Sequence record: LC788708.1
Strand: one strand, 5' to 3'
Length of the DNA: 64,000 nt
From: Escherichia coli phage AZ21
In this document: positions 21,977 to 59,987 of the stretch, in pieces
How positions within the stretch are numbered: the stretch's first letter is position 1
How the letters are laid out: every line of letters starts with the position of its first letter
Program-made: the position numbers and the translations under genes
Notes under the pieces: model-generated
Told to the model about the DNA's origin: nothing
Seen by the model: the letters and a program-made list of their open reading frames with translations, nothing else
The model's database searches: none

Positions 21977-22219
21977 TTACGATTCCTTGAGCAAAGAAGC
22001 AAGTTCAGCATAGACTTTATCTAACTCAAAGCCGATGCGAAGAGACACGTTTGTTTTCCGTTGTTTAAGTAACCACTCGGATATGTTAGGGATGCCAGCT
22101 AATCTATGTGGTACCACCCTACATAGCTTTTCCGAAGTGTCGTAAACAGGAACTTTACGTTCTTTTACTGGAAACTTCCTTGTTTCCCATTTTTTATTCT
22201 TCACTGTCATTTCTAGCAC
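21977..22219 (-). CDS. Hypothetical protein
   Basis: 80-aa basic ORF. Confidence 0.4.
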   Translation of the reverse strand: MLEMTVKNKKWETRKFPVKERKVPVYDTSEKLCRVVPHRLAGIPNISEWLLKQRKTNVSLRIGFELDKVYAELASLLKES

Positions 22220-25061
22220 CTAGCTCTGCCATTGCTTCATCATGCATATGTTTCTCCTCATCAGTCATAAACTTATATGGGATTGGCATACACTCGATTT
22301 TACAATAGGTTCTGTACCAGTCTACAATATTCTCCGTGTTCATATCCTTACCAATACCCATCATACCAAGATACATTCTTGCATATTTTGGGTTAGCACT
22401 CTGACCTGTTTTAAGGAAGAAATCTTTCTTCTTACCTTTCAGAGCTTCTATGAATGGTTTGATAGTGACATTTGAACACTTCTTAATATCTTCCCAGAAC
22501 ATCTCGTGCATTTTATGGAAGAATGCCGCTCGATCATTCGGTTTATCCTTGATATATTGTTCAACATGCTCAACTGTTACATCTTTAATAGACTCAAGAT
22601 GATAATAGCGTACAAGAAGTAGTTTAGCTTCATACGCATCTGCATGGCGTGGAGCACAATAATCAGGAGTTGAATACAAAATAGCTTTGATTCGCTCTTC
22701 CGTATATTCTTTTCCTGCACCTTCGATAGTTCCCCAGCTTTCACTAAAAATATCAATAGTTGCACCCTGATCAAGCAAGTAGTAACGTAAAGTACTAGTA
22801 TAGTTCCTAGATTCCAGCTCTCTTCGACGTGCGTATAATTGCTGTGCTAACTCCAGCCAACCTTCATCAATGTTATATTGTTCAGAACCTGCGGAGAATC
22901 CACTTGTAGATTTATCAATAAAATAATAAATGTTCTGAGCACCACGGTCGCGCCTGATTGCTTGGAAACGCATGTTTGGCGCCTGGTTGCTAGTTCTAGT
23001 AATAACGAATACGTTATCAAAGTAGTTGAAGTCAACACCACTCGTTACGGATGGACTACATAATAAGCAATCAATTTGTTGATCAATTAGCTCGTTAGTT
23101 GTGTAATCCAGGATACGTCGAATATCTACATCAGACGTAGAGTTTGAATGGATTTCCTTAACTAACGCACCAGTATTACGACGCAATGCCATGCCCTTCT
23201 CATTCAGTTCATCAGGGCCACAATCAGATACCAGAATAGATTTCTCCCCCATCTCTAGAGAAGTCTGAAGTGCAACCCAAATACTGGATTCGTCAGGGAA
23301 CTCATAAGCATGAGCTTTTGACAGCATCTTACGGTGATGATTATAAAATGCAACCGGTTTATCAAACTCAATCAAAGAACCATATGCTTCAATTGTTTCT
23401 GCACTAATATCCCCATCAGATAATATAATTATTTTTGCAGTTGCAAGAATATCCCGAAGAACTTGAATGCATTCACGACGTTGTTTAACAACCGGAGCGA
23501 ATAATAGGTCATTCATTACAGCATCACATTCATCGATAAAGATTGCATCAATTTGACCAATAAAACTCTTGAACTTATGCAAAGAGTGAATAGTTGTGGA
23601 CATACGGTCAATAGCACCACGCTTAAAATTAAGCATATCTACAGACTTATCATATTGTCCTGCACTAAATTTCTTAGCATTTGAAGATACCAGCGCTCTA
23701 GTATTGGTAATTGCTAAGAAATTACCTTTAATAACTCCTGAATCTAACCAACGTACAACCGCCGTAGTTTTACCTGTACCTAGACTTGCTTTTACAAAAG
23801 TCATATAACCTTCTGGTGGTACAGTATTTAATTTCAAGAAGTTATCAGTTTCTAGAGAATTAGTTTCTAACTTTTTAAGTGGAATACCTTTTAAAACATC
23901 AGGTATATCGCGTTTAGAATTATTAACAAACGCTTTCAGAGCCTGTTTACGACCGTTATTAAAGTAATCTTGAATATTACGACTATTATCTTTAGTTGCA
24001 ATATACTCTGATAAGGCTGGACGGATTTCTTTTTCTAGCCATGCAAAGTCAACACCATCCTCTAAAGCTCTATGATAGAGTTTAGGTATGATACGTAGAT
24101 ACACTCCATCCTCAGCTTCTTCTAGTTCGCTGATAGTTTCCTCTACTTTATCAGAGGCAGCTTTTTTACCTTTAATTTGATCTAGTAAAGAGTAAAACTC
24201 CTCCTTAAACTCACCTCTAGTTGTTTCATAATCAACCAGATTATTGGGTAAGTTTACCTTAGAACCCTTAACAAATACCAGACGTGAAGCACCCTCCGCT
24301 TTAAACGGATCTACTATACCATCGGTAAATAACGGATCTGCAAAATAATGAAGCTGTACGGAAGAGTAATAAGCTAAGTCGGCAATATCAAAGCCATACT
24401 TTTGTCTACTACTTTCGTTGATAGATGTAAATAAGAATTTTATTTGACCCTGAGTTACTTTAACATTAGATTCTAGTATTAAGTGCATTCGGATACCTGG
24501 TTTTAGCCCAGCCGAAGACGATGCATGAGCGATAAACCCTGCATCAAGAGGAAACATATCCTCACTAATACTATTTAACATTCTAATAATATGTCGAGCC
24601 ATGCCAACAAGATCAAACTTGTTACAACCACCTGTATCTACAATACCATCCACATCCATTGCAATTATATGACTTGGATTAGATACATTAAAGTTGCCCT
24701 TCTTACGCCGCACATTATTTTTAGGTGCGAGACATCGACCTCGTACCGCAACAATATGAGGGTCAGACGTTAAACGTCTCATAAGGGGAAGCATTTCTAC
24801 TAGGGTTTGAGGATCAACTTCATCAATTACATCAAACTTGAAGGGCATTGAAGCTGGTTTACCTTCAGGATGCTTTGAGGAAAATCTTTTAGCAAAAAGA
24901 TAGTCTTCTGCTTTAACTTCTCGCCAAATGCCTGTGGCTAAATCGCGATGAAATCCTGCATGACCTTGTAGGATTGAGAACACAACAATACTCCTGTGTT
25001 GGAAATGAAATAAGTTTTCTTTAGGACTATTCAGAAAGAATAGAACAACTGTTACTGTCAA
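22194..25061 (-). CDS. Large P-loop NTPase / helicase-like protein (putative replication origin-binding helicase); true start may be the internal ATG near 24848
   Basis: Walker A SLGTGKTTAV, Walker B FIDECDAV; N-terminal 71 residues of the longest ORF look non-protein-like; preceded by about 400 nt ORF-free leader. Confidence 0.6.
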   Translation of the reverse strand: MTVTVVLFFLNSPKENLFHFQHRSIVVFSILQGHAGFHRDLATGIWREVKAEDYLFAKRFSSKHPEGKPASMPFKFDVIDEVDPQTLVEMLPLMRRLTSDPHIVAVRGRCLAPKNNVRRKKGNFNVSNPSHIIAMDVDGIVDTGGCNKFDLVGMARHIIRMLNSISEDMFPLDAGFIAHASSSAGLKPGIRMHLILESNVKVTQGQIKFLFTSINESSRQKYGFDIADLAYYSSVQLHYFADPLFTDGIVDPFKAEGASRLVFVKGSKVNLPNNLVDYETTRGEFKEEFYSLLDQIKGKKAASDKVEETISELEEAEDGVYLRIIPKLYHRALEDGVDFAWLEKEIRPALSEYIATKDNSRNIQDYFNNGRKQALKAFVNNSKRDIPDVLKGIPLKKLETNSLETDNFLKLNTVPPEGYMTFVKASLGTGKTTAVVRWLDSGVIKGNFLAITNTRALVSSNAKKFSAGQYDKSVDMLNFKRGAIDRMSTTIHSLHKFKSFIGQIDAIFIDECDAVMNDLLFAPVVKQRRECIQVLRDILATAKIIILSDGDISAETIEAYGSLIEFDKPVAFYNHHRKMLSKAHAYEFPDESSIWVALQTSLEMGEKSILVSDCGPDELNEKGMALRRNTGALVKEIHSNSTSDVDIRRILDYTTNELIDQQIDCLLCSPSVTSGVDFNYFDNVFVITRTSNQAPNMRFQAIRRDRGAQNIYYFIDKSTSGFSAGSEQYNIDEGWLELAQQLYARRRELESRNYTSTLRYYLLDQGATIDIFSESWGTIEGAGKEYTEERIKAILYSTPDYCAPRHADAYEAKLLLVRYYHLESIKDVTVEHVEQYIKDKPNDRAAFFHKMHEMFWEDIKKCSNVTIKPFIEALKGKKKDFFLKTGQSANPKYARMYLGMMGIGKDMNTENIVDWYRTYCKIECMPIPYKFMTDEEKHMHDEAMAELGARNDSEE

Positions 25062-25550
25062 TTTCTCAACAAATTAATTGCAAATACTGAAGGGGGGTGG
25101 CAACTTCCCCTTTCACGCTACACTGCCGCTTCACTATACCGCACAAATCCTTGAGGATGGCCGCTAAGCCAGATTTGCTCACCTAATGCTTCATGTACTA
25201 GCTCATACTAGATGCAGTATACCTTACGTCATCACTTCTCAGAGTTTTTCACTCTTCCCGTCTCACTTCACAACCACCTCACGCTAGGTTGCTTCGAGGC
25301 CTTACCAGGGTTCCTACGGGATGTAGATCGCTAAGTATTCTATTAACTATTTGTTTAAAAACTAACACGTAACAGTTAAAACAACCCTTAATGGGGCAGC
25401 CTAACTGTTCCGTATCGCGGATTGTAAACAAGAAAAATTAGCAAAATCAATTTTTACTAATGTCTCTCAATTCAATATAAATATTATATCAAGATTTTGG
25501 GCATCCTGCAAGTAAAATTTTCCGGATGGTGCTATCATTGGTCTTGAGTA

Positions 25551-25580
25551 CGATAAAACCGAGCCAAAATGACTCGGTTA
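25551..25580 (-). terminator. Hairpin terminator
   Basis: Minus-strand reading aaccgagtcattttggctcggtt followed by ttatcg. Confidence 0.45.
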
Positions 25581-25586
25581 TGTGGA

Positions 25587-25784
25587 TTAGACACTTAAAA
25601 TACTTCTAATCTCTTCTATATACTTATCTACTTTTTTAGCATCTACTTTACTTAGTTTTCCTATATCAAAATCAGGATCAGTAAACATTCTAGCTATTTC
25701 TATCTCTAGAGACTTACTAATTTTCCCTGTAGTATTCCACTTAGAAATCTTACCTTTTATTTTCCAAAATTCCTTATTCATCAT
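25587..25784 (-). CDS. Hypothetical small protein
   Basis: 65-aa ORF. Confidence 0.4.
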   Translation of the reverse strand: MMNKEFWKIKGKISKWNTTGKISKSLEIEIARMFTDPDFDIGKLSKVDAKKVDKYIEEIRSILSV

Positions 25785-31387: not shown

Positions 31388-31609
31388 TAAATTCTCCTTA
31401 ATTCACATATTATACATAATTCCACCCCATACGTCAACTACATTTTTCTAATACTATTTGACTTTTGATTTTTATCAATTTTTATTGACGTTATACAGCA
31501 TAATATCTTTACGTATAAATAAATGAATATCTAGTATCATATTTCTACCTTTATAAGCAAGTAAACTTTTTATTTAAAAGCAATATCATAGGTTTATTTA
31601 AAATTATAC

Positions 31610-31638
31610 TTGCTTTTTGCTGTAAACCTTGTTATAAT
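31610..31638 (+). promoter_or_regulatory. Sigma70-type early promoter (phoH operon) in the divergent intergenic region
   Basis: ttgctt-17 nt-tataat in AT-rich 320-bp region. Confidence 0.6.
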
Positions 31639-31714
31639 ATATTCGTAAGTTGATAAACAAGATCTCTTTGTTGATCCTCTGTTAGAAGCGAAGTACACTA
31701 TAGGAGTGTTATTT

Positions 31715-42191: not shown

Positions 42192-42574
42192 TAATTTAAA
42201 AGCTAGTAAATCGGTAGACGAAAGCCCAAGCATCTTACCTCGCAGCAGCGGTTGAAATACGAGGTTAAATAAGACCGCTGACCATACTATAAAGTATAAT
42301 CTATTGGAGATTATGTTTATTACACCAGCCTCTTAAGCTGACACGTAAGAACAAAGCGTCGTTGATATTACCGACACAACTTCAAAGATCAACATTTAAG
42401 TATGAAAGCTGAAAAGTTTAAAGAACTCAAACTTCTAAACTTCTAAAGCTAAAAGATGCAAAGTATTCGTTGATGATTCAAACCCTAGATCAAAGGTACA
42501 TGGCTCATAAGATATGGCCTGTGGCGCCTCTAGGCTGTTTATCGGTTTACTAGTTTCACAATTTAAAAATGTAT

Positions 42575-42603
42575 TTGCTAATTTACTAAGTTATCTGTAT
42601 AAT
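42575..42603 (+). promoter_or_regulatory. Sigma70-type early promoter
   Basis: ttgcta-17 nt-tataat-atatttttaaattgatgaaacgagg. Confidence 0.65.
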
Positions 42604-42633
42604 ATATTTTTAAATTGATGAAACGAGGCTATT

Positions 42634-44265: not shown

Positions 44266-44767
44266 AGAACTGGATAACTGATGCTTTTAACGTAAAAGCT
44301 TCCGAGGTTAGTTGCGCACTGCCTAAACCACGCGGTAGTTGGTTCCAGACTAACCAACCAGTCTGCTGAATAGTTTTATTACGATTTAACTATGTCCAGG
44401 CTAAAGAAGAACTTTAGAAGGTATTCTAGGATAGTGAAGTTCTTTCTCCACATCGGAGTAGTTTTTCAAGCTATCCACAAAGTGGGAAATGCTGACATGA
44501 GAGATGTCACTAATGGTGCACAATAGCACAGGTAATTCGCGATAATTCCTGTTGAGTAGCAGCAAAAGGCGGGAAGTCATGACCCCAAGCCTAACCGAGT
44601 CCTCAATATACCGCAGGGCATAACCACTAAGTCACCCTGACTTAAACTGGAAAATAATAGACGTTACTGTATTTTGTCTTGAAATACTTAATGAGTGAGA
44701 CTTATGACTCTCCCGGTATCGTCTGTATTTTTAAGAGTTTTTACGAGAGTTCTTAAAAATACTTAAA

Positions 44768-44842
44768 CGGGGTGTAGTCTAAGGGAGAGGCAGGAGTCTT
44801 CTAAATTCCTTTATGCAGGTTCGAATCCTGTCACCTCGGCCA
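44768..44842 (+). tRNA. tRNA-Arg (anticodon UCU)
   Basis: Acceptor cggggtg/cacctcg, D-stem gtct/aggc, anticodon stem ggagt/attcc with loop cTTCTAa, T-arm gcagg-ttcgaat-cctgt, discriminator g, encoded CCA. Confidence 0.8.
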
Positions 44843-44876
44843 ATTTTATTAACTGTAACTAAAACAAAGGAAACAT

Positions 44877-58875: not shown

Positions 58876-59121
58876 ATGTTAGCGGAACAAGCAAAACGTT
58901 TAGCTAGAATAAATAGAGCTGCACTCCTTAAGAGCAAGAAGAAAACGTATAAGTATGTTAAAAAGAGAATAGTTTCTTCTGTAGGGATTGGAAGTTCTTT
59001 TGTACAGTTTAATCGTGATGAAATTAGTTATGAAGTTATAAAAGCCCTCTATAAAGAGGGTTATACTCTCCAACTATCTAATGATTATGGCACAACTATT
59101 TTAACTGTTATTTGGGAATAA
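58876..59121 (+). CDS. Hypothetical protein
   Basis: 81-aa ORF. Confidence 0.45.
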   Translation: MLAEQAKRLARINRAALLKSKKKTYKYVKKRIVSSVGIGSSFVQFNRDEISYEVIKALYKEGYTLQLSNDYGTTILTVIWE

Positions 59122-59987
59122 TTATGAAAAAAGAATTTAATGTACATAAAACTCTAGTAGTGCCTGATGATGCCAACTTGTTTTTCGTTGGTGATATTCA
59201 TGGATGCAATGATTTGCTAGAAGATGCGTTGAAGTTAGCTGGGTATAATAGCAAAAAAGATTGCGTAGTATGTGTCGGAGACTTAATAGACCGAGGCACA
59301 CAAAACCTACAAGTTTTAGCCAAATTCCTGTATAATCCACGTTTTATCAGTGTACGTGGTAATCATGACCAATTTATGATTGTAGGAGATTGGGCTAATT
59401 GGATGTATAATGGTGGTATGTGGGCTATGAATGAACTAGATGCAGACACCATTAAAAATATTGCCGAAGATATGGCTGAAAAAATGCCAGTATTCCTAAC
59501 TGTTAGACATCGTGGTAAGAAGTTTGGTGTTGTTCATGGTGGTGTACCTTTTACGTACAAAGAATGTGGTAATGAAGTAGAAACCCCAGTATGGGATAAT
59601 CTTATTGCACAAATAGAAGCAGCTAAGGAAAACCCACATGACCATCCTGAATACCATATTGAACCATATTTATGGGATCGAGATGTAATCCAAGAAATAG
59701 GCTTCTACTTGTCCAAAAATGGTGAGGAACACCCGTATTTCCAGCGTTATGCAGGATTTAAAGAAAAATACATGGTAGAAGTGCCAGAAGTTAAAGGTGT
59801 AGATTTCGTGTTTCACGGACATACTGGAGTTCCTTACCCACTTCTTTATAAGAACCGTGTTTATCTTGATACTGGCGGTGTTTTCAACGGGCAGTTGACG
59901 GTTGCGCAAGTTAACGATGAAACTGGCAAAATCACCACATTTACCACAGATAAAAATAATAGCTGCGGTGTACAGAGGATTCTTTAA
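59112..59987 (+). CDS. Ser/Thr protein phosphatase (calcineurin-like metallophosphatase)
   Basis: FFVGDIHGC, VGDLIDRG, RGNHD motifs. Confidence 0.75.
   Translation: MGIIMKKEFNVHKTLVVPDDANLFFVGDIHGCNDLLEDALKLAGYNSKKDCVVCVGDLIDRGTQNLQVLAKFLYNPRFISVRGNHDQFMIVGDWANWMYNGGMWAMNELDADTIKNIAEDMAEKMPVFLTVRHRGKKFGVVHGGVPFTYKECGNEVETPVWDNLIAQIEAAKENPHDHPEYHIEPYLWDRDVIQEIGFYLSKNGEEHPYFQRYAGFKEKYMVEVPEVKGVDFVFHGHTGVPYPLLYKNRVYLDTGGVFNGQLTVAQVNDETGKITTFTTDKNNSCGVQRIL

What the first reader, a model, noticed from the sequence alone, without database searches (positions are those of the whole stretch)
25062..25550. About 490-bp ORF-free, relatively GC-rich leader upstream of the large helicase-like gene: candidate structured RNA or origin-associated region
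In an otherwise tightly packed genome, no ORF of 60 aa or more occurs on either strand here. A minus-strand promoter (ttgcag-17 nt-tataat, about 25478-25506) would transcribe through the region into the 955-aa P-loop protein gene. The sequence is visibly richer in G/C than neighbouring intergenic DNA, contains a G-rich hairpin (aagggggg...cttcccctt at about 25070-25100) and repeated tcacttc/cacctcac motifs (25230-25285). It could be a long structured 5' leader, an ncRNA, or iteron-like DNA near a putative origin-binding helicase.
Basis: partly seen in the sequence, partly recalled or inferred. Interest (0 to 1): 0.5.

Follow-up and report, generated by a model that had tools for sequence, protein, structure and literature searches.

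The report
Structured RNA before T5 helicase gene
The gene-free stretch encodes a conserved, intricately folded RNA domain of about 330 bases in the leader of the replication-helicase (D2) message of T5-like phages; it matches no known RNA family and its function has not been tested.

Summary
The ORF-free stretch 25062-25586 is real and is the longest in the 64-kb window. The true gap is 24984-25586. The window is a T5-like phage, 100% identical to E. coli phage AZ23. On the minus strand, a T5 early sigma-70 promoter (-35 at 25511-25506, -10 at 25488-25483; annotated 'T5P32' in T5) drives a ~490-nt untranslated leader of the D2/'obp' UL9-like helicase gene.

The leader holds a ~330-nt domain (25377-25047). 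A long-range helix of 20-35 bp closes it, and it contains at least eight more helices.

- **Covariation:** of 97 predicted pairs, 97.9% of cells pair and 45 pairs show compensatory changes, against 5-11 in slid controls. In a cross-type covariance-model alignment, 30 of 35 pairs are compensatory.
- **Strand:** 305 G·U cells against 8 A·C cells show that the transcript strand folds.
- **Distribution:** eight sequence types occur in phages of Escherichia, Salmonella, Klebsiella, Pantoea, Pectobacterium, Proteus and Providencia. They share the architecture and an invariant CU-UAGC-GG hairpin.
- **Excluded:** no Rfam match, conserved ORF, iterons or terminator.

Best reading: a new structured leader RNA, probably processed at its long stem and controlling D2 expression. 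That function is inferred. An origin or primer RNA is a minority alternative.

The parts
25557..25579 (-). Intrinsic terminator of the upstream operon: hairpin AACCGAGUCAUUUUGGCUCGGUU followed by a U run. It isolates the leader's own promoter.
   Evidence: Inverted repeat I9. Conserved in the alignment. Annotated as a rho-independent terminator in T5 and HASG4.
25483..25511 (-). T5-type early sigma-70 promoter: -35 TTGCAG at 25511-25506, 17-nt spacer, -10 TATAAT at 25488-25483. The inferred start site is near 25476.
   Evidence: Sequence. Near-invariant in T5-like phages. Annotated 'putative early promoter T5P32' in AY587007 and 'promoter' in NC_005859. A 61-bp match also occurs at other early promoters of Klebsiella phages.
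25430..25468 (-). 5'-proximal stem-loop of the transcript (GAGAGA..UUAGUAAAA-loop-UUUUGCUAA..UUUCUU), followed by a U-rich tract (UUCUUGU, 25434-25428) that can pair with the D2 Shine-Dalgarno sequence.
   Evidence: MFE folds of all types show a 5' hairpin of different sequence. The UUCUUGU/ACAGGAG helix appears in the type-B consensus, with only pair-preserving changes. A 10-bp equivalent exists in AAS21.
25395..25411 (-). P0 hairpin GGAACAG-UUAGG-CUGCC, a conserved island (GAACRGUYNGGCYG).
   Evidence: Conserved in types A, B, AAS21, Sugarland, DU_PP_V and My1. The A-U pair changes to G-C in AAS21 and L105 (helix 1).
25047..25377 (-). The structured RNA domain as a whole: P1-closed, about 330 nt, containing P2-P7.
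   Evidence: RNAalifold and pair counts. Between type A and type B, the core 25341-25056 is replaced as a cassette while the flanks stay 87-93% identical.
25342..25377 (-). P1 5' arm (AACUGUUAC GUGUUAGUUUUU AAACAAAUAGUUAAU).
   Evidence: It pairs with 25078-25047. Twenty pairs are conserved in A2 (helix 2), 35 in type B (helices 3 and 4), and 32 in the window's own fold. The arms are complementary in 10 of 11 types, z -2.5 to -5.7. Inverted repeats I1 and I5.
25047..25078 (-). P1 3' arm (AUUAAUUUGUUGAGAAAUUGACAGUAACAGUU).
   Evidence: Same evidence as the 5' arm. Compensatory series: G-C (window), G-U (T5), A-U (BD13).
25321..25332 (-). P2 5' strand AGCG-AU-CUACAU, with a conserved bulged AU (the GAUCU island).
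   Evidence: It pairs with 25123-25115. Five of 9 pairs show compensatory changes, e.g. CUACA/UGUAG to CUGCG/CGCAG (helix 3).
25115..25123 (-). P2 3' strand GUGUAGCGU (the conserved '..AGC..' island).
25241..25320 (-). P3 three-way element (UCCCGU/ACGGGA, enclosing a small hairpin and P3a CAACC/GGUUG) and the P4 hairpin (AGAGU-GAAAA-ACUCU).
   Evidence: helices 4-9, with compensatory changes in each. Repeat family D4.
25133..25223 (-). P5 junction (GGUAUACUG/GCGGUAUAGU) enclosing the P5a hairpin (CAUCUAGU/AUUAGGUG) and P6.
   Evidence: helices 12 and 13. In the cross-type covariance-model alignment, every one of the 8 pairs of P5a and 5 of 7 pairs of P5 are compensatory.
25143..25178 (-). P6 stem (GCAAAUCU/GGAUUUGU) capped by the P6a mini-hairpin GGCU-UAGC-GGCC (25170-25159). 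CUUAGCGG (25168-25161) is invariant in all eight types.
   Evidence: Alignment A4 has 8 invariant columns among 11 sequences. The P6 stems differ in every type yet still pair (8 of 8 pairs compensatory). P6a changes are GGCU/GGCC, AGCU/GGCU, GACU/GGUC and GCCU/GGGU.
25090..25112 (-). It is not a terminator.
   Evidence: Covaries: GGGG/CCCC to GUGG/CCAC, and AUAUGA/UCAUAU in T5. No U tract follows, and the terminator scan found none.
25027..25043 (-). P8 hairpin CUAUUC-UUUCU-GAAUAG, between the domain and the ribosome-binding site.
   Evidence: helix 17. helix 16.
24981..24995 (-). Shine-Dalgarno AGGAG (24995-24991) and the GUG start codon (24983-24981) of D2.
   Evidence: The conserved N-terminus MFSILEGH starts here.
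22194..24983 (-). D2 / 'replication origin binding protein' gene: a 929-aa UL9-like SF2 helicase, the cistron served by the leader.
   Evidence: phrog_3712 and Pfam Herpes_ori_bp over residues 394-533. PDB herpes OBP chains match at E 2e-5. T5 D2 is a characterised bipolar helicase (PMC3632103).

Best explanation
The region is not empty spacer. It is transcribed from a strong T5 early promoter as the ~490-nt untranslated leader of the D2 (UL9-like helicase) mRNA. About 330 nt of that leader (window 25377-25047, minus strand) fold into a conserved multi-helix RNA domain.

**Shown:**
- The promoter is present, and no terminator or ORF lies between it and D2.
- The fold consists of a long closing helix P1, P2 with a GAUCU bulge, the P3/P4 hairpins, and a P5 junction carrying P5a and P6/P6a. 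The P6a hairpin CU-UAGC-GG is invariant. P7 follows.
- The fold persists across eight otherwise unalignable sequence types.
- The strand that folds is the transcript strand.

**Inferred mechanism:**
- The domain acts at the RNA level on expression of D2 and the replication genes downstream of it.
- The 20-35-bp P1 duplex works like the processing stalks that flank rRNAs or the RNase III sites of T7 early mRNAs. Cleavage there would release the ~300-nt domain.
- Cleavage would also separate the 5' U-rich anti-Shine-Dalgarno tract from the message, leaving a D2 mRNA that begins with the protective P8 hairpin.
- The invariant hairpin, the P0 hairpin and the P2 bulge are the likely contact points for a protein, possibly D2 itself acting in feedback.
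- The G-rich, C-poor, tightly folded composition would also protect the long untranslated leader from Rho.
For: **Identity and context.** The window is 100% identical to phage AZ23, and 535 phage records match the gap. T5 has the same layout: terminator, promoter T5P32, then 472 nt with no annotated feature before obp.

**Structure within type A and its relatives.** Of 97 predicted pairs, 97.9% of cells are paired, against 39-46% when the partners are slid. Forty-five pairs show changes on both sides, against 5-11 when slid. No shuffle out of 500 reached the observed value on any of the five measures.

**Structure within type B.** Of 139 pairs, 99.8% of cells are paired. Six pairs are compensatory, against 0-1 when slid. 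Almost no change breaks a pair.

**Structure across types.** A covariance model built from type A alone finds Pantoea AAS21 (72 bits), L105 (53), Pectobacterium DU_PP_V (38), Klebsiella Sugarland type (38, E 6e-8) and My1 (31). In the resulting alignment, 30 of 35 pairs carry compensatory changes, against 8-13 when slid.

**Strand.** G·U/U·G cells number 305 and A·C/C·A cells 8, out of 1940.

**P1.** The arms are complementary over 20-35 bp in 10 of 11 types.

**Anti-SD pairing.** It appears in type B (helix 1) and in AAS21.

**Negative controls.** No terminator lies in the leader. No ORF is conserved in any frame.

**Spacing.** The distance from P0 to CUUAGCGG is 223-229 nt (my count from the sequences) in the types that carry the P0 island. 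This holds despite sequence turnover.
Against: - No expression, processing or binding data exist for this region. I found none in the papers searched.
- Single-sequence folding energy is only moderately better than shuffles: z -2.7 for the window and -1.5 for T5.
- Anti-SD pairing is not conserved in all types. In Sugarland, Stubb and My1 the SD sits in a local hairpin instead.
- A 330-nt domain with invariant loops is far more elaborate than a translational operator needs. This favours an additional or different role.
- Stubb and DU_PP_V have a promoter-like site between the domain and D2, so the domain may not always be part of the D2 message.
- P1 in the Sugarland type is irregular (z -0.4).
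Confidence: 0.5

Rival explanations
1. The domain is a trans-acting, stable non-coding RNA. Once folded or excised from the leader, it works away from the D2 message. It could be the RNA subunit or scaffold of a ribonucleoprotein, in the way phi29 pRNA is. It could also be a decoy or sponge for a host factor or defence sensor. Its position in the D2 leader would then only provide early, strong expression.
For: The size, the number of helices and the invariant loop nucleotides resemble those of large functional ncRNAs more than those of operators. The core turns over rapidly in sequence while keeping its architecture and spacing, and it is exchanged as a cassette independently of D2 divergence. 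That pattern is seen in RNAs under conflict or specificity selection. The closed ends (P1) would stabilise a released RNA. Stubb and DU_PP_V have a separate promoter-like site for D2.
Against: It is always directly upstream of D2, in the same orientation, with no terminator in between. No second copy or target motif is enriched in sense transcripts of the window. No partner is known.
Confidence: 0.2
2. The region is a transcription-activated replication origin. The early transcript, G-rich and folded like ColE1 RNA II, would form a persistent R-loop or primer, or present a structure to the neighbouring UL9-like D2 helicase, and DNA synthesis would start here. In T5 the locus lies at 48.5-49% of the genome.
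For: The D2 gene is adjacent; D2 was proposed as an initiator helicase and is related to HSV UL9. A strong promoter fires into about 490 nt with no coding function. The transcript strand has G 26% and C 17%. In T5 the leader spans 59,073-59,615 of 121,752 bp. My recollection that electron microscopy placed an early T5 origin near the middle of the genome could not be verified, because the paper is not held.
Against: There is no GC-skew inflection at the locus. There are no iterons, no AT-rich unwinding element and no antisense RNA-I-type promoter. Recombitron editing of T5 showed a strand bias, which its authors read as dominant unidirectional replication from one genome end (PMC10055335). Covariation with 16% G·U pairs points to selection on RNA folding, which a simple R-loop does not require. 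The D2 N-terminus does not change with the RNA type: it is 91% identical between type A and type B hosts.
Confidence: 0.15
3. The conserved features act at the DNA level. They would be protein-binding sites (for example the near-palindrome GAACnGTTC in P0 and GCTTAGCGGC) or single-stranded DNA hairpins, such as a primosome-assembly or ssi signal on the displaced strand, rather than RNA.
For: Short invariant islands sit in otherwise diverged sequence. P0 contains a partial palindrome. By established knowledge, UL9 binds a hairpin form of oriS.
Against: Compensatory changes occur in about 10 helices, and 305 G·U cells stand against 8 A·C cells. This does not fit duplex-DNA sites, and the G·U load is high for a DNA hairpin. 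A dedicated promoter reads the folding strand as RNA.
Confidence: 0.05
4. The region is functionless: a decayed gene, a remnant of a mobile element bounded by inverted repeats, or plain spacer.
For: The core is bounded by inverted repeats and is swapped like a cassette. An optional 97-nt insertion occurs in 51 records.
Against: Some version is present at the same site in all T5-like phages of Enterobacterales examined. Its spacing is constant, compensatory substitutions are pervasive, and no frame is conserved.
Confidence: 0.03

Closest known systems
RNase III processing stalks (rRNA precursor stems; T7 early-mRNA R sites; lambda N leader)
   Same: A long-range, imperfect duplex of 20-35 bp is formed by sequences flanking a structured RNA within a longer transcript. 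It lies just upstream of a cistron whose translation could change after cleavage.
   Different: Cleavage has not been shown. There is no sequence similarity. The enclosed RNA is a new domain, not rRNA.
ColE1-type RNA II (replication primer precursor)
   Same: It is promoter-proximal, several hundred nucleotides long, G-rich and multi-hairpin. It lies next to replication functions. Its sequence diverges into 'alleles' that keep the same fold.
   Different: No antisense RNA I promoter was found, no origin or RNase H site is known, and the RNA continues into a protein-coding message. It does not match Rfam RNAI or related models.
phi29-family pRNA
   Same: It is a phage-encoded RNA whose relatives share secondary structure but little sequence.
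   Different: pRNA is 120-174 nt, is transcribed on its own, and is part of the packaging motor. Here the RNA is an early leader of a helicase gene.
Phage translational operators and leaders (T4 gene 32, gene 43, regA targets) and riboswitch-type leaders
   Same: It is a cis-located structured 5' UTR of a replication gene, with possible Shine-Dalgarno sequestration by an upstream pyrimidine tract.
   Different: Those operators are 20-100 nt. No known riboswitch class matches. The domain here is about 330 nt with about 10 helices.
Large bacterial or phage ncRNAs of unknown function (ROOL, GOLLD, HEARO, raiA, OLE)
   Same: The size class is similar, covariation support is strong, loop nucleotides are invariant, and some of these occur in phages.
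   Different: None of their Rfam models matches. This RNA is confined to one locus of Markadamsvirinae-like phages and is embedded in an mRNA leader.

Membership tests
Any Rfam 15 family (4227 models, including riboswitches, RNase P, tmRNA, 6S, ROOL, GOLLD, HEARO, RNAI, ribozymes) | Covariance-model score at or above the family's gathering threshold | tested here: not met
   The window at gathering threshold gives only 5 tRNAs at 44-48 kb. An E<=10 scan of 24900-25700 gives only chance hits of 13-17 bits against thresholds of 36-56. Homologous loci in eight other phages give no hit.
tRNA / tmRNA | Cloverleaf or tmRNA fold detected by ARAGORN | tested here: not met
   Six tRNAs, all at 44.7-49.2 kb, and none in the region.
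Protein-coding gene (including a frameshifted one) | An open frame conserved in position and phase among relatives | tested here: not met
   ORFs of 25 aa or more differ in frame, start and position in all 10 types. BD13 has none on the sense strand. The type A and type B cores cannot be aligned.
Iteron-type replication origin | Three or more direct repeats of about 17-22 bp, usually with an AT-rich unwinding element | tested here: not met
   Only two-copy repeats of 8-17 nt. None is conserved across types.
Replication origin (any type) | Initiation of DNA synthesis at the locus; a skew or copy-number inflection | tested here: inconclusive
   The cumulative GC-skew minimum is at 31587, not here, but skew follows transcription direction in this genome. 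Initiation itself cannot be tested with these tools.
Intrinsic terminator / attenuator (for hairpin 25090-25112) | A GC-rich stem followed directly by a U tract | tested here: not met
   The stem is followed by CAGUAUUUGC. The terminator scan found no site in the leader. The T5 version is an AU-rich stem.
Sigma-70 early promoter of T5 | -35 and -10 hexamers at 17-nt spacing, an A/T-rich upstream region, and conservation | tested here: met
   TTGCAG-17-TATAAT with AAAATTTTAC upstream. Conserved. Annotated T5P32. Activity was not measured.
Structured RNA supported by covariation | Helices maintained by compensatory substitutions beyond controls, on one strand | tested here: met
   for pair counts and controls. 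for 305 G·U against 8 A·C cells.
RNase III processing stalk | (a) a duplex of about 20 bp or more formed by flanking sequences; (b) cleavage by RNase III | tested here: inconclusive
   (a) is met in 10 of 11 types. (b) cannot be tested with these tools.
ColE1-like RNA II / RNA I control | An antisense RNA I promoter within the primer region; an RNA-DNA switch at the origin | tested here: not met
   No plus-strand promoter-like site lies inside 25047-25470. The RNA-DNA switch cannot be tested.
Riboswitch (novel class) | A ligand-binding aptamer with an alternative expression platform | not testable with these tools
   An alternative pairing of AACUGUUAC with P0 exists only in the Tequintavirus and Epseptimavirus flanks (I3) and is absent in AAS21 and DU_PP_V. 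No ligand can be inferred.

The most novel reading that the evidence does not exclude
The P1-enclosed RNA is a dedicated RNA cofactor for starting T5 DNA replication. It would act either as a primer or R-loop former at the unmapped primary origin near the genome centre, or as a scaffold that loads the UL9-like D2 helicase. Its fast-evolving 'types' would set replicon specificity between co-infecting T5-like phages.
Probability: 0.15. Interest if true: 0.9.

Novelty: new variant of a known kind. Interest (0 to 1): 0.68.

Why it matters
T5 is a classical model phage, yet this ~600-nt gap in front of its presumed initiator helicase carries no functional annotation in the records examined. Where it is annotated at all, it holds spurious small CDSs.

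The evidence here shows that the gap encodes one of the larger covariation-supported RNA folds seen in a phage. The fold is conserved across phages of seven enterobacterial host genera and is absent from Rfam.

This gives a concrete, genetically tractable object for three open questions:
- how T5 early replication genes are controlled;
- whether large structured RNAs take part in phage DNA replication or host takeover;
- why an RNA can keep its architecture while its sequence is replaced wholesale.

It also corrects gene calls in many deposited genomes.

Tried and rejected
1. **Rfam, tRNA and tmRNA identity.** No hits.
2. **Hidden or frameshifted gene.** No conserved frame.
3. **Iterons or tandem repeats.** Only two-copy short repeats.
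4. **P7 as a terminator.** No U tract, and not found by the scan.
5. **GC-skew origin signal.** The minimum lies 6 kb away, at the transcription switch.
6. **RNase P-like reading.** The islands ACAGAAC..CCGGCU and UAGGCUGC resemble parts of the M1 RNA sequence as I recall it. I rejected this because no RNase P model scores and shared 8-mers are expected by chance.
7. **Pseudoknot between the P6a loop (AGCGGC) and P0 (GCUGCU).** It pairs in types A, B, AAS21 and Sugarland, but a C-to-A change in L105 breaks it and it is absent in Stubb and PR1. It remains unsupported.
8. **boxB-like reading of P4 (GAAAA pentaloop).** The loop is not conserved outside type A.
9. **Presence in bacterial genomes.** A combined P0+P6a pattern gave 31 hits in GTDB genomes. 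That is about the number expected by chance, and none scores with the covariance model. In IMG/VR it returned only T5-like contigs plus 2 chance hits.
10. **Homology of the long obp leaders of Vibrio and Aeromonas phages.** No motif and no covariance-model hit, even with filters off. A three-sequence alignment was uninformative.
11. **Extending the P5-P7 covariance model to type B, Providencia and Proteus types.** Only the P6/P6a hairpin matches (E about 0.04-0.2). PR1 gives a weak full-length hit at the right place (12.9 bits).
12. **A regulon of CUUAGCGG sites.** There are 4 sites in the window against 1.2 expected, but the other three are antisense to transcription.
13. **Literature.** Nothing on this leader, and Bourguignon 1976 is not held.
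Full report
**What the window is.** The 2.6 kb around the finding is 100% identical to Escherichia coli phage AZ23. It is 93-97% identical to many Tequintavirus and Epseptimavirus genomes, and 543 phage records match. All genes from about 4 kb to 31.5 kb of the window lie on the minus strand, so I read the region as RNA on the minus strand.

**The observation.**
- No ORF of 60 aa or more lies on either strand in 25062-25586. This is the longest such stretch in the 64 kb; the runners-up are in the tRNA cluster.
- The 955-aa mechanical ORF over-extends. The conserved helicase starts at GUG 24983, with AGGAG 8 nt upstream. The gap is therefore about 600 nt.
- GC content peaks at 0.485. The transcript strand is G-rich: G 26% and C 17% in the core, against 19% each for the whole window.
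It is TTGCAG (25511-25506), 17 nt, TATAAT (25488-25483), nearly invariant in relatives, and annotated in T5 as early promoter T5P32. In T5 it follows a terminator and precedes 472 nt that carry no annotation before obp.
- The G-rich hairpin is at 25090-25112, not 25070-25100.
- The 'repeated motifs' are two-copy matches of 8-13 nt.

**The neighbouring gene.** The gene is the 929-aa 'replication origin binding protein' (phrog_3712). A Herpes_ori_bp helicase segment covers residues 394-533, and PDB herpes OBP chains match. In T5 this is D2, a characterised bipolar SF2 helicase proposed to act in initiation (PMC3632103).

**Conservation pattern.**
- Aligning the leader from T5, DT57C, BD13, NBEco002, two KKP phages and Pantoea phage AAS21 shows conserved flanks and a central ~285 nt that exists in two mutually unalignable forms.
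- Between the window (type A) and T5 (type B), the flanks are 87-93% identical. The segment 25341-25056 gives no blastn match at all.
- Pantoea AAS21, whose D2 is only 72% identical in protein sequence, keeps a type-A-like core at 70% nucleotide identity.
- I gathered loci through the helicase N-terminus from IMG/VR, metagenomes and GenBank. Clustering gave seven types, and a pattern scan added an eighth.
- The eight types are: A (AZ23, DT57C); B (T5, Epseptimavirus); AAS21/L105; Klebsiella Sugarland/IME260; Providencia PR1/PSTCR5; Pectobacterium DU_PP_V; Pectobacterium My1; and Proteus Stubb.
- All have a sigma-70 promoter, a 5' hairpin and a 480-760-nt leader.
- All contain CUUAGCGG.

**It is a folded RNA.**
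- For 20 sequences of type A and its alignable relatives, RNAalifold predicts 97 pairs, of which 45 have compensatory double changes.
- Counting on that structure gives 97.9% of cells paired, against 39-46% when the 3' partners are slid by 1-3 columns. It gives 45 compensatory pairs against 5-11 when slid. No shuffle out of 500 reaches the observed value on any of the five measures.
- The 16 type B sequences are 97% identical, so statistical power is low. Even so, 139 pairs are 99.8% paired. The differences between the T5 and BD13 subtypes fall on six pairs as double changes (0-1 in slid controls). The one-sided changes in paired columns keep a standard pair (for example G-C to G-U). Only a few single cells are unpaired.
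- A covariance model of the P5-P7 sub-domain, built from type A alone, recovers AAS21, L105, DU_PP_V, the Sugarland type (E 6e-8) and My1 at full length. BLAST cannot align these.
- In that model-guided alignment, 30 of 35 pairs carry compensatory changes, against 8-13 when slid, and 96% of cells pair, against 37-46%. The alignment is fitted to the model, which favours the structure, but the margin is large.
- Of the paired cells, 305 are G·U or U·G and only 8 are A·C or C·A. The folding strand is therefore the transcript strand. The complementary strand would carry about 300 mismatches.
- Single-sequence energies are only modestly better than shuffles: z -2.7 for the window and -1.5 for T5. 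The case therefore rests on covariation.

**Anatomy (window coordinates, minus strand).**
- 5' hairpin: 25468-25430.
- U-rich tract UUCUUGU: 25434-25428.
- P0 hairpin GGAACAG-UUAGG-CUGCC: 25411-25395.
- P1: 25377-25342 pairs with 25078-25047.
- P2: AGCG-AU-CUACAU (25332-25321) pairs with GUGUAGCGU (25123-25115).
- P3 three-way element and P4 hairpin: 25320-25241.
- P5 junction: 25223-25133. It carries P5a and P6.
- P6 (25178-25143) is capped by the mini-hairpin GGCU-UAGC-GGCC (25170-25159).
- P7: 25112-25090.
- P8: 25043-25027.
- Then the SD and the GUG start codon.
- The consensus fold of type B has the same order of elements: two hairpins, small hairpins, then a P5 junction with P5a and P6/P6a. 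P1, P2, P6 and P6a can be written for nearly every type with different sequences.
- P6a itself covaries: GGCU/GGCC, AGCU/GGCU, GACU/GGUC and GCCU/GGGU.
- The distance from P0 to CUUAGCGG is 223-229 nt (my count from the sequences) in all types that have P0. The pattern with N{212,242} matched all of them.
- P1 is unusually long: 32 bp in the window's own fold and 35 bp in type B. The arms are complementary in 10 of 11 types, z -2.5 to -5.7. The Sugarland type is irregular.

**What it is not.**
- No Rfam family matches, at gathering or permissive thresholds, in the window or in nine related loci.
- There is no tRNA or tmRNA, no conserved ORF, no iterons, and no terminator in the leader.
- No GC-skew inflection occurs here.
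- Nothing comparable turns up in bacterial genomes: the 31 pattern hits are at chance level and fail the covariance model.
- Vibrio and Aeromonas Demerecviridae also have long ORF-free leaders before their obp genes. These show no homology to this RNA.

**Mechanism.**
- *Shown:* an early promoter reads about 490 nt of conserved, folded, non-coding RNA straight into D2.
- *Inferred:* the domain acts on D2 expression at the RNA level. I commit to this model. P1 is a processing stalk of the rRNA or T7 type for RNase III. Cleavage frees the ~300-nt domain, removes the 5' anti-SD tract (helix UUCUUGU/ACAGGAG in type B; 10 bp in AAS21), and leaves a D2 message headed by the P8 hairpin. The invariant P6a hairpin, P0 and the P2 bulge would be protein contact sites. 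The G-rich, C-poor, folded leader would also resist Rho. That rests on established knowledge of rut sites.
- *Confidence:* I put about 0.9 on 'functional structured RNA' and about 0.5 on the cis-regulatory and processing package.
- *Rivals:* a trans-acting RNA (0.2), an origin or primer RNA (0.15), DNA-level sites (0.05), and no function (0.03).
- *On the origin idea:* it draws on the D2 neighbourhood and the central genome position (48.5-49% in T5). The absence of origin hallmarks weakens it. So does the recombitron strand bias, which its authors read as replication from one genome end (PMC10055335).

**Novelty and verdict.** I found no description of this element in Rfam or in the papers searched. 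It is a new class of large structured leader RNA. It is confined, on present evidence, to Markadamsvirinae-like phages of Enterobacterales.

Noticed in passing
L005 (DT57C) leader, between window-equivalent positions ~25437 and 25431; also L012, L041 (type A) and L032 (type B): An optional ~97-nt insertion sits right after the 5' hairpin, flanked by direct UUUUUCUU repeats. It occurs in 51 T5-like GenBank records, once per record, in both type A and type B backgrounds. It has no Rfam match and contains its own 8-9-bp hairpin (AUUUACGG...CCGUAAAU).
   Followed up: partly
window 25587-25784 (-): A 65-aa ORF (phrog_29527, unknown function) lies between the upstream operon and the terminator. It is absent from T5, where the homologous flanks abut.
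   Followed up: partly
L088 ~870-1930 and L043 1-1041 (Vibrio phage JSF12 type); L044 ~1010-1671 (Vibrio phage Brizo): Distant Demerecviridae also have very long ORF-free, G-rich leaders between a sigma-70-like promoter and their obp homologue: about 1.06 kb in the JSF12 type (MFE z -3.1) and about 650 nt in Brizo (z -0.5). There is no detectable homology to the T5-type RNA, and too few diverged sequences were available to test covariation.
   Followed up: partly
L002 (phage Baret) 2567-3069; L006 (BD13) and L009 (KKP_3831) obp start: Deposited annotations place 33-50-aa 'hypothetical protein' CDSs inside the leader, or start obp 96 nt upstream inside P8/P1. None of these frames is conserved across types, so they are likely mis-calls.
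   Followed up: yes
L076 ~1936-1965 (Proteus phage Stubb); L075 ~1907-1935 (Pectobacterium DU_PP_V): A near-consensus sigma-70 promoter (TTGACA-18-TATAAT in Stubb; TTGATG-17-TATAAT in DU_PP_V) lies between the RNA domain and obp, overlapping the P1 3' arm. In these phages D2 may also be transcribed without the domain.
   Followed up: no
window 25367-25378 with 25402-25413: The outer 5' arm of P1 (AACUGUUAC) can pair instead with GGAACAGUUAGG in P0 (12 nt, 92% complementary). This gives mutually exclusive folds, but only in Tequintavirus and Epseptimavirus flanks, not in AAS21 or DU_PP_V.
   Followed up: partly
L008 (Salmonella phage KKP_3822) leader U-tract: A long poly-T/C expansion (TTTTTTCCCTTTTTTTTTTTTTT) lies in the U-rich tract after the 5' hairpin. 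It could be slippage or an assembly artefact.
   Followed up: no
window 42192-42609 and 44358-44876: Two other ORF-free stretches of 418 and 519 nt lie beside the tRNA cluster. Rfam at gathering threshold reports only tRNAs there. I did not examine them further.
   Followed up: no
window 31388-31705: A 318-nt ORF-free gap coincides with the cumulative GC-skew minimum (31587), where gene orientation switches from minus to plus. It is a divergent promoter region, and it is the only skew-based origin candidate in the window.
   Followed up: no
window 16992, 18235 (+) and 43234 (-): Three further exact CUUAGCGG matches occur, giving 4 in total against 1.2 expected. All three are antisense to the local direction of transcription, so they are probably chance.
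   Followed up: partly
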